The notes beneath the pieces were generated by a model, which did no database searches, had not been told where the DNA came from, and saw nothing but the letters and a program-made list of their open reading frames with translations. From Akkermansia sp. (GTDB lineage: Bacteria; Verrucomicrobiota; Verrucomicrobiia; Verrucomicrobiales; Akkermansiaceae), in NCBI GenBank assembly GCA_045653545.1, contig JAZOMC010000014.1:3880-67879 (forward strand): DNA of 64,000 nucleotides, given 5' to 3'. The stretch's first letter is position 1. The number at the start of each line of letters is the position of its first letter. Below, piece after piece: positions 5,600 through 5,636 of this stretch. Both the position numbers and the translations under genes were made by a program.

Positions 5600-5608
5600 A
5601 CGGCGGCC

Positions 5609-5636
5609 ATTATACGCGCGTATACGCGCGCGTCAA
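5609..5636 (-). promoter_or_regulatory. Sigma70-type promoter of gyrBA (TTGACG-16-TATAAT) with palindromic spacer
   Basis: Minus strand reads TTGACG CGCGCGTATACGCGCG TATAAT GGCCGCCGT ATG(gyrB). Confidence 0.75.

What the first reader, a model, noticed from the sequence alone, without database searches (positions are those of the whole stretch)
5600..5636. gyrB promoter spacer is a perfect Z-DNA/cruciform-prone palindrome: candidate built-in supercoiling sensor
Seen: between TTGACG and TATAAT the 16-bp spacer is CGCGCGTATACGCGCG, a perfect palindrome. It lies within a 23-bp strictly alternating purine-pyrimidine run (5611-5633), followed by a GC-rich discriminator (GGCCGCCG) and then the ATG. 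Established: gyrase genes are relaxation-induced in E. coli and mycobacteria, and alternating CG/TA runs flip to Z-DNA or extrude under negative supercoiling. Inference: a protein-free homeostat in which high negative supercoiling distorts the spacer and shuts gyrBA off. The palindrome could instead be a repressor site.
Basis: partly seen in the sequence, partly recalled or inferred. Interest (0 to 1): 0.65.

Follow-up and report, generated by a model that had tools for sequence, protein, structure and literature searches.

The report
Conserved Z-DNA-prone spacer in gyrase promoter
In an uncultured gut Akkermansia, the DNA between the two recognition boxes of the gyrase promoter strictly alternates pyrimidine and purine. 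About 95% of 111 Akkermansia species keep such a stretch next to this gene while its letters drift, which makes it a good, still untested, natural candidate for a DNA-shape sensor of supercoiling.

Summary
On the minus strand the sequence reads TGAC-N11-TTGACG-CGCGCGTATACGCGCG-TATAAT-GGCCGCCGT-ATG(gyrB), followed by gyrA 24 nt after gyrB. The 23-nt alternating run is the longest among 299 predicted strong promoters of this genome.

In 94 of 111 Akkermansia species genomes an alternating run of 16-26 nt abuts the -10 box. In the 12 columns next to it, 9 vary, only by transitions, so alternation holds in all 1128 cells. Four-fold sites of gyrB in 17 close relatives show 68 transition and 92 transversion minor states. 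The parE promoter in the same genomes keeps its boxes, but its spacer varies freely.

A standard B-Z energy model puts the flip at sigma about -0.04 in 106 of 111 species. For parE the median is -0.057. Only 4 of 1691 genes in this genome reach gyrB's value.

The cruciform idea fails, because the arms are 6 bp and about 10 are needed. The GC-rich discriminator and near-leaderless layout are genome-wide habits.

In the A. muciniphila clade the tract lies upstream of the -35, so spacer distortion cannot be the universal mechanism. A protein operator is not excluded.

The parts
5648..5651 (-). Upstream TGAC element, 11 nt before the -35 hexamer
   Evidence: TGAC-N11-TTGAC occurs 16 times in intergenic DNA of this genome, always with exactly N11 and followed by a -10. 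It is conserved upstream of gyrB in most Akkermansia species. It is a general promoter feature and not specific to gyrase.
5637..5647 (-). AT-rich 11-nt stretch between TGAC and the -35 (ATATTATATAA), UP-element-like
   Evidence: Sequence. It is AT-rich in clade A relatives. Its function is inferred only.
5631..5636 (-). -35 hexamer TTGACG
   Evidence: Matches TTGACA at 5 of 6 positions. Its position is conserved, and the letters vary among species (TTGACG/TTGAGG/TTGAAG/TTGCGC/GTGACA).
5615..5630 (-). 16-bp spacer CGCGCGTATACGCGCG: perfect palindrome, six CpG
   Evidence: Unique in the genome. It is the outlier among 299 predicted promoters. Conserved as (CG)3-5 / TA, TATA, CA or TG / (CG)2-3 in 94 of 111 species.
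5611..5633 (-). 23-nt uninterrupted purine-pyrimidine alternation, running from inside the -35 into the TATA of the -10; predicted Z-DNA-prone core CGCGCGCGTATACGCGCG
   Evidence: The B-Z model gives an onset of sigma about -0.042 for the 18-bp core. In 94 species the phase of alternation is kept in all 12 columns 5' of the -10.
5609..5614 (-). -10 hexamer TATAAT
   Evidence: 6 of 6 match. It is conserved in position across the genus.
5600..5608 (-). GC-rich discriminator or very short leader, GGCCGCCGT (9 nt)
   Evidence: The -10-to-ATG gap histogram peaks at 6 nt (40 genes) and 9 nt (37 genes). The 9-nt class shows Y at position 6 and R at position 7. There is no Shine-Dalgarno sequence in these 9 nt (read directly).
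3038..5599 (-). gyrB coding sequence (853 aa)
   Evidence: NF011501 975.7 bits, TIGR01059 887 bits. The ATG at 5599 is the only start codon in the open frame upstream of the conserved N-terminus.
338..3013 (-). gyrA coding sequence (891 aa), 24 nt downstream of gyrB: a gyrBA operon
   Evidence: NF004043 1093 bits. Coordinates.
5991..7385 (+). Divergent neighbour mpl (murein peptide ligase); its transcription would feed negative supercoils into the shared 391-bp intergenic region
   Evidence: TIGR01081 444.6 bits. The twin-domain effect is inferred from established knowledge and was not tested.

Best explanation
The alternating CG/TA tract is a cis-acting, structure-encoding part of the gyrBA promoter of Akkermansia. 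Selection maintains pyrimidine-purine alternation and CpG richness, not a particular letter string.

Most likely mechanism (inferred). The promoter is a strong sigma70-type promoter (TGAC-N11-TTGACG-16-TATAAT) that produces a leaderless or near-leaderless gyrBA mRNA. At ordinary superhelical density the tract is B-form and the promoter is active. When local negative supercoiling passes about sigma -0.04, the 16-18 bp tract flips to left-handed Z-DNA. Sources of such supercoiling could be excess gyrase activity, the promoter's own transcription, or the divergent mpl gene. In most species the flip would wreck the -35/-10 geometry. In the A. muciniphila clade it would alter the DNA just upstream of the -35. 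Either way gyrase synthesis would fall until supercoiling relaxes.

Shown: the anatomy, the outlier status, genus-wide selection on alternation, and the conserved predicted B-Z threshold. Inferred: that the flip happens in vivo, and the direction of its effect on transcription.
For: (1) Anatomy and promoter quality. A. muciniphila has -35/-10 type promoters, and about 10% of its mapped TSS are leaderless (PMC4782308).
(2) It is the outlier among 299 predicted promoters of its own genome. It is one of only 3 alternating runs of 23 nt or more.
(3) 94 of 111 species genomes carry a run of 16-26 nt abutting the -10, although DNA beyond about -60 cannot be aligned.
(4) In the 12 columns 5' of the -10, 9 vary and every variant is a transition. 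Alternation is kept in 94 x 12 cells. At four-fold sites of gyrB in only 17 close relatives, 96 of 111 columns vary, with 68 transition and 92 transversion minor states. G/C transversions, which would keep GC content but break alternation, are absent.
(5) Control: the parE promoter in 20 of the same genomes keeps its -35 and -10 positions but has freely varying spacers.
(6) Predicted B-Z onset is -0.036 to -0.042 (median -0.040) in the 94 species. It is the same value for the displaced tract in 12 of the other 17. The parE median is -0.057. The median for 1691 own-genome upstream regions is -0.057, and only 4 reach gyrB's value. The parameters are identical to PMC3024258 Table 1, and the (CG)16 benchmark gives -0.032 against -0.031 measured.
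(7) A second locus, upstream of rpsL, also keeps alternation while its letters differ among relatives.
(8) Other lineages of the phylum show sporadic tracts at gyrB, including a 39-nt perfect run.
Against: There is no experimental datum: no TSS, no response to gyrase inhibition, no structural probing.

The predicted onset of about -0.04 is beyond the mean unconstrained supercoiling usually quoted for E. coli (my recollection). By the same model the gyrB tract ranks only about 14th in its own genome, because TA steps are costly.

In the A. muciniphila clade the tract sits upstream of the -35 of an AT-spacer promoter, so a single 'spacer' mechanism does not cover the genus. 3 to 5 species lack a strong tract.

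Outside Akkermansia the frequency is 3 of 55 for runs of 14 nt or more. That is not clearly above the roughly 3% I estimate as background for 200-nt upstream regions, from the own-genome run counts.

CpG-to-TpG or CpA changes are transitions, and a mutational bias toward them at CpG would contribute to the transition-only pattern. A 2026 review states that direct in vivo evidence for regulatory Z-DNA in bacteria is limited (PMC13463272).
Confidence: 0.4

Rival explanations
1. The tract is the operator of a sequence-specific DNA-binding protein that recognises a CG-rich dyad overlapping or flanking the core promoter. The protein could be a repressor or activator, or conceivably gyrase or a nucleoid protein.
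For: It is a perfect palindrome. Conservation is genus-wide. It appears modular, because in the A. muciniphila clade it sits about 16 nt upstream of the -35, centred roughly 60 nt before the ATG, a typical activator position. CGCGCG-N4-CGCGCG occurs only three times in the genome, always in intergenic DNA (gyrB, rpsL upstream, C39:28268).
Against: The letters change freely by transitions, and no transversion is seen in 1128 cells. The left block length ((CG)2-5), the centre (TA/TATA/CA/TG/TACA) and the implied half-site spacing all vary, and some clades keep only (CG)3TG(CG)2. The rpsL tract also changes letters but not alternation. Any (CG)n-(CG)m tract is self-complementary, so the palindrome carries no extra information. 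No candidate protein was identified.
Confidence: 0.27
2. The effect is mechanical and needs no B-Z flip. A run of flexible pyrimidine-purine steps changes the twist or torsional stiffness of the spacer, so that -35/-10 alignment or -10 opening depends on supercoiling while the DNA stays right-handed.
For: Spacer length and twist are known determinants of supercoiling sensitivity, with short spacers favoured on relaxed DNA (PMC9303308). The spacer here is 16 bp, and 16-18 bp across species. Selection on YR alternation fits this reading as well as it fits Z-DNA.
Against: It does not explain the displaced tract outside the spacer in the A. muciniphila clade, or the tract about 240 nt upstream of rpsL. 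Spacers of 16 nt were the exception to the published model. The strong preference for CpG over CpA or TpA steps is what Z-DNA energetics predict.
Confidence: 0.12
3. The tract is a passive GC clamp. GC-rich spacer and discriminator confine melting to the -10, giving precise start-site choice for a leaderless mRNA. The alternation would be a by-product of CG-repeat slippage and CpG mutation bias.
For: GC-rich, often GCGCGC, discriminators are frequent next to -10 boxes in this genome. Differences in CG copy number between species look like slippage.
Against: About 150 other leaderless-type promoters, including parE, do without a CG spacer. A clamp would tolerate G/C transversions, yet none is seen.
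Confidence: 0.08
4. The tract acts at the RNA level. It would be transcribed from a promoter further upstream and form a stable 5' hairpin (CGCGCG-UAUA-CGCGCG) that stabilises or regulates the gyrBA mRNA, as reported for Mycobacterium smegmatis gyrase mRNA (my recollection).
For: A weaker upstream promoter-like match, TTTTCA-16-TATAAT at 5663-5636, exists in this genome. The tract is self-complementary.
Against: That upstream match is not conserved beyond the closest relatives, whereas TTGAC-16/18-TATAAT is, which puts the tract upstream of the conserved start site. There is no Rfam match. Variation preserves alternation rather than showing hairpin-specific compensatory pairs.
Confidence: 0.04
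5. Cruciform extrusion of the palindrome under negative supercoiling inactivates the promoter.
For: It is a perfect 16-bp inverted repeat with an A/T centre. An artificial E. coli promoter regulated by cruciform extrusion is known (Horwitz and Loeb 1988, my recollection).
Against: The arms are 6 bp. The minimum for a 50% chance of extrusion at sigma -0.06 with a 4-A/T loop is 10 bp (PMC3834812). Many species have TA, CA or TG centres, which would force even smaller or GC loops.
Confidence: 0.03

Closest known systems
Relaxation-stimulated transcription of gyrase genes (E. coli gyrA/gyrB, Menzel and Gellert 1987; mycobacterial gyrBA)
   Same: The same gene and the same regulatory need. Gyrase promoters form a recognised class activated by DNA relaxation, and its mechanism is still not settled. 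[quoted passage not shown]
   Different: In E. coli the determinant was mapped to about 20 bp around the -10 and +1 (my recollection of Menzel and Gellert). To my knowledge no alternating or Z-prone spacer has been described for any gyrase promoter. Here the response to relaxation is untested.
Promoter-proximal Z-DNA-forming tracts ('flipons'); Z-DNA stabilised by transcription-driven supercoiling upstream of promoters in E. coli plasmids (Rahmouni and Wells 1989)
   Same: An alternating CG-rich tract whose predicted onset lies within reach of transcription-generated supercoiling. It is located in or just upstream of a promoter, next to a divergent gene.
   Different: The bacterial examples are engineered inserts, and natural regulatory cases are described mainly in eukaryotes. 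Direct in vivo evidence in bacteria is limited (PMC13463272). Here the tract is natural, short (16-18 bp core, with TA interruptions), lies inside the core promoter, and shows comparative evidence of selection on alternation.
Horwitz and Loeb (1988) artificial E. coli promoter regulated by supercoil-induced cruciform extrusion
   Same: A protein-free switch in which a non-B structure inside the core promoter turns transcription off at high negative supercoiling.
   Different: That promoter was selected in the laboratory and uses a cruciform. Here the palindrome arms are too short for a cruciform, and the favoured structure is Z-DNA.
Spacer-length, spacer-sequence and discriminator models of supercoiling sensitivity (PMC9303308, PMC8422995, PMC8695583)
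   Same: The spacer and discriminator of a sigma70 promoter act as the sites where DNA mechanics sets the response to supercoiling.
   Different: Those models treat B-form elasticity and melting. They do not explain relaxation-activated gyrase promoters, and they predict that the GC-rich discriminator here would act against homeostasis.

Membership tests
Sigma70-type -35/-10 promoter | -35 and -10 hexamers close to consensus, separated by 16-18 bp | tested here: met
   TTGACG-16-TATAAT, 11 of 12. The hexamer positions are conserved across more than 100 species.
Sigma70-type -35/-10 promoter | A mapped transcription start 6-9 nt downstream of the -10 | not testable with these tools
The only indirect support is that A. 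muciniphila promoters carry -35/-10 logos (PMC4782308).
Leaderless or near-leaderless mRNA gene | -10 box within about 6-10 nt of the start codon and no Shine-Dalgarno sequence | tested here: met
   The gap is 9 nt. The genome-wide gap histogram peaks at 6 and 9 nt. The gap is 8-11 nt in most gyrB orthologues (6 nt under the alternative -10 assignment in the A. muciniphila clade).
Leaderless or near-leaderless mRNA gene | Transcript 5' end at, or within 3 nt of, the A of AUG | not testable with these tools
   No read data. The 9-nt class shows a Y6-R7 signature suggesting a 3-nt leader, but gyrB itself has C at position 7.
Z-DNA-forming tract (flipon) | Uninterrupted pyrimidine-purine alternation of at least 8-12 bp, rich in CpG | tested here: met
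   23-nt run with an 18-bp core, (CG)4 TATA (CG)3. PMC3024258 uses a minimum Z run of 8 bp.
Z-DNA-forming tract (flipon) | Transition at a superhelical density reached in the cell | tested here: inconclusive
   The model onset is -0.042 here, and -0.036 to -0.042 across 94 species. That is within the range of plasmid DNA in vitro and of transcription-driven local supercoiling, but beyond the mean unconstrained level usually quoted.
Z-DNA-forming tract (flipon) | Physical detection of left-handed DNA (2D gels, Z-alpha or antibody binding, chemical probing) | not testable with these tools
   Bench experiment.
Cruciform-forming inverted repeat | Perfect inverted repeat with a short A/T loop | tested here: met
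   CGCGCG-TATA-CGCGCG.
Cruciform-forming inverted repeat | Arms long enough to extrude at physiological supercoiling (about 10 bp or more) | tested here: not met
   The arms are 6 bp, against a 10-bp minimum at sigma -0.06 (PMC3834812).
Relaxation-stimulated gyrase promoter | Higher transcription on relaxed than on supercoiled template, or after gyrase inhibition | not testable with these tools
   No expression data are available. The GC-rich discriminator would by itself predict the opposite.
Operator of a dimeric transcription factor | Dyad-symmetric site with conserved half-site letters at fixed spacing | tested here: inconclusive
   The dyad is present, but letters, block lengths and centre vary by transitions and 2-bp steps. 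Periodic CG lets CGCGCG-N4-CGCGCG persist in many variants but not all.
Operator of a dimeric transcription factor | A cognate binding protein | not tested
   No candidate was identified. There is no stand-alone CarD; only Mfd carries that domain.
Phase-variable promoter with a simple-sequence repeat in the spacer | A long repeat tract (typically 6-8 units or more) with copy number varying within a species | tested here: not met
   Only (CG)3-5 is seen, and the differences are between species, not within. Within-species variation was not examined.

The most novel reading that the evidence does not exclude
Alternating pyrimidine-purine tracts in or beside gyrase promoters are a recurrent, independently evolved, protein-free supercoiling sensor in bacteria. 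The DNA itself flips to Z-form when over-wound by gyrase and shuts the gyrase operon off. Akkermansia would be the clearest natural case. Tracts at gyrB occur in other Verrucomicrobiota (a 39-nt run in G143). Unverified first-stage notes of this scan report similar tracts in at least five unrelated genomes.
Probability: 0.2. Interest if true: 0.85.

Novelty: new variant of a known kind. Interest (0 to 1): 0.66.

Why it matters
How gyrase promoters sense DNA relaxation has been open since the 1980s. Current elastic and melting models explicitly fail for them (PMC8422995). A regulatory role for Z-DNA in bacteria lacks good natural examples (PMC13463272).

This locus offers a compact test case of 16-18 bp. 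The comparative data already specify the informative mutants: transitions that keep alternation against G/C transversions that break it at equal GC content.

The genus also provides a natural contrast. The uncultured clades carry the tract in the spacer, whereas the A. muciniphila clade, which I believe holds the cultured species, carries it upstream of the -35.

If confirmed, it would show a protein-free homeostat built into a core promoter. It would also give a rule for finding others.

Tried and rejected
(1) Cruciform: rejected on arm length.

(2) Shared topA-gyrB regulatory motif. TGACRTAYTATAWWNTTGA matches only gyrB and topA with 0 mismatches. However, TGAC-N11-TTGAC proved to be a general promoter element, with 16 intergenic sites all at N11. 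The AT-rich middle is shared with topA only in this species and its nearest relative. It is not a topoisomerase regulon.

(3) CarD-coupled supercoiling control (PMC12976309): there is no stand-alone CarD, only Mfd (the genome is 91% complete).

(4) Structured RNA: no Rfam match at gyrB, rpsL-upstream, C39 or C44 sites.

(5) Upstream promoter P2 with a 5' hairpin: P2 is not conserved.

The Cappable-seq paper's held supplements did not appear, from their file list, to include an Akkermansia TSS table, and I did not open them.

(7) Phylum-wide enrichment: 55 non-Akkermansia Verrucomicrobiota were sampled, and 3 have runs of 14 nt or more within 200 nt of gyrB. That is not clearly above the roughly 3% background I estimate, so no enrichment claim is made.

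(8) Whether the upstream neighbour is divergent in relatives: a crude ORF test gave 37 divergent and 12 co-directional. It is too rough to rely on.

(9) GC clamp: rejected as the main explanation, because G/C transversions are absent.

Full report
WHAT IS THERE. Read on the minus strand, window 5651-5597 is TGAC-ATATTATATAA-TTGACG-CGCGCGTATACGCGCG-TATAAT-GGCCGCCGT-ATG. The ATG opens an 853-aa GyrB (NF011501, 976 bits). GyrA follows 24 nt later, so this is the promoter region of a gyrBA operon. It lies divergent from mpl (5991-7385, +). The consensus scan scores TTGACG-16-TATAAT at 11 of 12. The spacer is a perfect 16-bp palindrome and also a tandem CGCGCGTATA x2. Titles of the closest public contigs identify the organism as an uncultured Akkermansia of animal hindguts. 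Earlier notes on this genome say the same.

IS IT MORE THAN CHANCE. In the 2.27-Mb genome, alternating-run counts halve with each added base up to about 13 nt. Extrapolating gives about 0.25 runs of 23 nt or more. Three exist, all intergenic, and one is gyrB. Among 299 predicted strong intergenic promoters, gyrB has the longest run (23; the next are 18 and 14) and the most CpG in its spacer (6), against a mean spacer GC of 0.46. The palindrome is unique in the genome.

WHAT IS ORDINARY ABOUT IT.
- The short distance from the -10 to the ATG is not special. The gap histogram for all called genes peaks at 6 nt (40 genes) and 9 nt (37 genes). Cappable-seq found about 10% leaderless starts and -35/-10 logos in A. 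muciniphila (PMC4782308).
- Discriminators of these promoters average about 65% GC, and GCGCGC next to the -10 is frequent.
- The upstream TGAC is also general. TGAC-N11-TTGAC occurs 16 times in intergenic DNA, always with N11.
- This disposed of an attractive side lead. A 19-nt motif matched only gyrB and topA with no mismatch. The shared part is this general element plus an AT-rich stretch that topA has only in this species and its nearest relative.

CONSERVATION. I collected the gyrB 5' region from 111 species-level Akkermansia genomes, plus named MAGs.
- In 94 genomes an alternating run of 16-26 nt (mostly 21-26) runs straight into the TATA of the -10. This holds although sequence upstream of about -60 cannot be aligned even among close relatives.
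- Anchored on the -10 hexamer, the 12 preceding columns show 9 variable columns. Every variant is a transition, so the phase of alternation is intact in all 94 x 12 cells.
- For comparison, four-fold degenerate sites of gyrB in only 17 close relatives vary in 96 of 111 columns, with 68 transition and 92 transversion minor states.
- G/C transversions, which would preserve GC content, never appear in the tract.
- The -35 letters (TTGACG, TTGAGG, TTGAAG, TTGCGC, GTGACA), the number of CG units (2-5) and the centre (TA, TATA, CA, TG, TACA) all vary.
- As a matched control, the promoter of the paralogue parE in 20 of the same genomes keeps CTTGCA-17-TAnAAT about 10-12 nt before its ATG, but its spacer varies freely.
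The constraint is therefore specific to gyrB, and it acts on alternation plus CpG richness rather than on a letter string.

THE EXCEPTION CLADE. In the A. muciniphila-like clade (12 of the remaining 17 genomes, several of them complete), the proximal promoter is TTGCAA-16 (AT-rich)-TAGTAT-9-ATG. A 14-16-nt alternating tract (for example TACGCGCGCGCACGCG) lies about 16 nt upstream of the -35. Its letters again drift by CA/CG exchanges. Two further genomes carry CGCGCGCGT as the discriminator instead. Three genomes have nothing comparable. The tract is thus tied to the gyrB promoter region across the genus, but not to the spacer position.

PHYSICS. For the cruciform, the arms are 6 bp. Zhabinskaya and Benham calculate that 10-bp arms are the minimum for a 50% chance of extrusion at sigma -0.06, even with the cheapest 4-A/T loop (PMC3834812). 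I reject the cruciform.

For Z-DNA I used the standard two-state energetics:
- junctions cost 5 kcal/mol each;
- CG costs 0.7, CA/TG 1.3 and TA 2.5 kcal/mol per dinucleotide;
- K = 2220RT/N with N = 5 kb;
- each junction contributes 0.4 turn.
These values are identical to Table 1 of PMC3024258. The benchmark for (CG)16 is -0.032 calculated against -0.031 measured. The gyrB core CGCGCGCGTATACGCGCG has an onset near sigma -0.042.
- Across the 94 spacer-tract species the onset is -0.036 to -0.042, median -0.040.
- The displaced tracts of the A. muciniphila clade give -0.039 to -0.040.
- parE promoters give a median of -0.057.
- The 100 nt upstream of 1691 own-genome genes give a median of -0.057, with only 4 genes reaching gyrB's value.
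So 106 of 111 species keep a tract of about the same predicted threshold within 100 nt of gyrB.

Caveats. This is a single-site estimate, not a full competition calculation. By the same score about 13 other sites in the genome, several of them coding, are as good or better. The threshold is more negative than the average unconstrained supercoiling usually quoted for E. coli (my recollection). A flip would therefore need local, transcription-driven or excess supercoiling. That is what a sensor of over-supercoiling would require, but it remains an inference.

HOW IT MOST LIKELY WORKS. I commit, at about 40%, to a supercoiling-responsive structural element. It would be B-form and permissive at normal superhelicity, and left-handed and non-permissive when negative supercoiling is excessive. 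That closes a negative feedback loop on gyrase synthesis.

The published B-form models do not provide this. GC-rich discriminators are predicted to be repressed by relaxation, and the authors state that their mechanism cannot explain relaxation-activated gyrA and gyrB. They mention competition with nearby structural transitions as one possibility (PMC8422995). Short spacers are predicted to be favoured on relaxed DNA, but 16-nt spacers were the exception to that model (PMC9303308).

RIVALS.
- Protein operator, about 27%. The tract is a palindrome, it appears modular, and its position in the A. muciniphila clade is activator-like. Against it stand the transition-only drift and the variable block lengths.
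- B-form torsional effect of YR steps, about 12%.
- GC clamp for start-site precision, about 8%. It is contradicted by the absence of G/C transversions and by parE.
- Transcribed 5' hairpin, about 4%. The conserved promoter places the tract upstream of the start, and there is no Rfam match.
- Cruciform, about 3%.

WIDER CONTEXT. A 24-nt alternating tract about 240 nt upstream of rpsL in this genome is matched in about ten relatives by tracts of 16-26 nt with different letters. Alternation-constrained tracts are therefore not confined to gyrB.

Among 55 other Verrucomicrobiota sampled, three carry CG-rich alternating runs of 14 nt or more within 200 nt of gyrB. One of them is a 39-nt perfect run. 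That frequency is not clearly above background, so I claim recurrence but not enrichment.

Unverified first-stage notes of this scan report alternating tracts as gyrB promoter spacers in at least five other genomes. I treat these as leads only.

WHAT COULD NOT BE DONE. No binding protein was searched for experimentally. A stand-alone CarD is absent.

VERDICT. Novelty: a new variant of a known kind, namely a supercoiling-sensitive gyrase promoter with a candidate non-B-DNA sensor. It has comparative support of a kind I have not seen reported for a bacterial promoter, and it leads directly to a clean experiment.

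Noticed in passing
window 5648-5651 and 15 other intergenic sites of the genome (e.g. C40:32084, C6:6168, C44:178540): TGAC lies exactly 11 nt upstream of a TTGAC -35 hexamer in 16 intergenic promoters, and never at N12 or N13. This may be an undescribed 'minus-50' promoter element of Akkermansia, or the site of a general factor.
   Followed up: partly
whole genome; gyrB at window 5600-5608: The distance from the -10 box to the start codon is bimodal: 6 nt (pyrimidine at -1, true leaderless) and 9 nt (Y at position 6, R at position 7, suggesting a 3-nt leader). 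Gaps of 7, 8 and 10 nt are rarer. The 9-nt class is unexplained.
   Followed up: partly
G000 contig C20:4501-4524 (outside the window), about 240 nt upstream of rpsL: A 24-nt alternating tract, CGCGCGCATGCGCGCGCATACGCG. About ten relatives carry a tract of 16-26 nt at a similar place with different letters but intact alternation.
   Followed up: partly
G000 contig C39:28268-28283 (outside the window): CGCGCGCGTGCGCGCG lies in a 650-bp intergenic region between gmk and an aminotransferase gene. It is the best predicted Z-DNA site of the genome (onset -0.037). It has no Rfam match and no obvious promoter around it.
   Followed up: partly
G000 contig C40:32084-32206 (topA upstream) and L227-L256: The topA upstream region is conserved across the genus: TGAC-N11-CTTGACAA, then a CTAATAGA/CTATAGA block at an unusual distance (about 21-23 nt), then a GC-rich inverted repeat (here CTCCGCGCGGAG). 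topA is directly followed by parE.
   Followed up: partly
L062-L112 (Luteolibacter, Haloferula and other Akkermansiaceae gyrB loci): Outside Akkermansia, the family shares a different conserved gyrB upstream block, CTTGTCTC-N~10-ATTTCAGAC about 15 nt before the ATG. It does not look like a TATAAT-type -10.
   Followed up: no
L325 (G143, another Verrucomicrobiota family): A 39-nt perfect alternating tract, CGCGTGCGCGCACACGCGTGTGCGCACGCGCACGCGCAT, lies about 106 nt upstream of gyrB, just before a TTGCGC-17-TATCCT promoter-like site. L327 and L333 have 14-nt CG tracts at their gyrB promoters.
   Followed up: partly
G000 contig C35:117948-117975 (outside the window): The second most alternating promoter spacer of the genome, TTGAAT-TCTCGCGCGCGTATGCG-TATAAT, precedes a family-2 glycosyltransferase gene. 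Its conservation was not examined.
   Followed up: no
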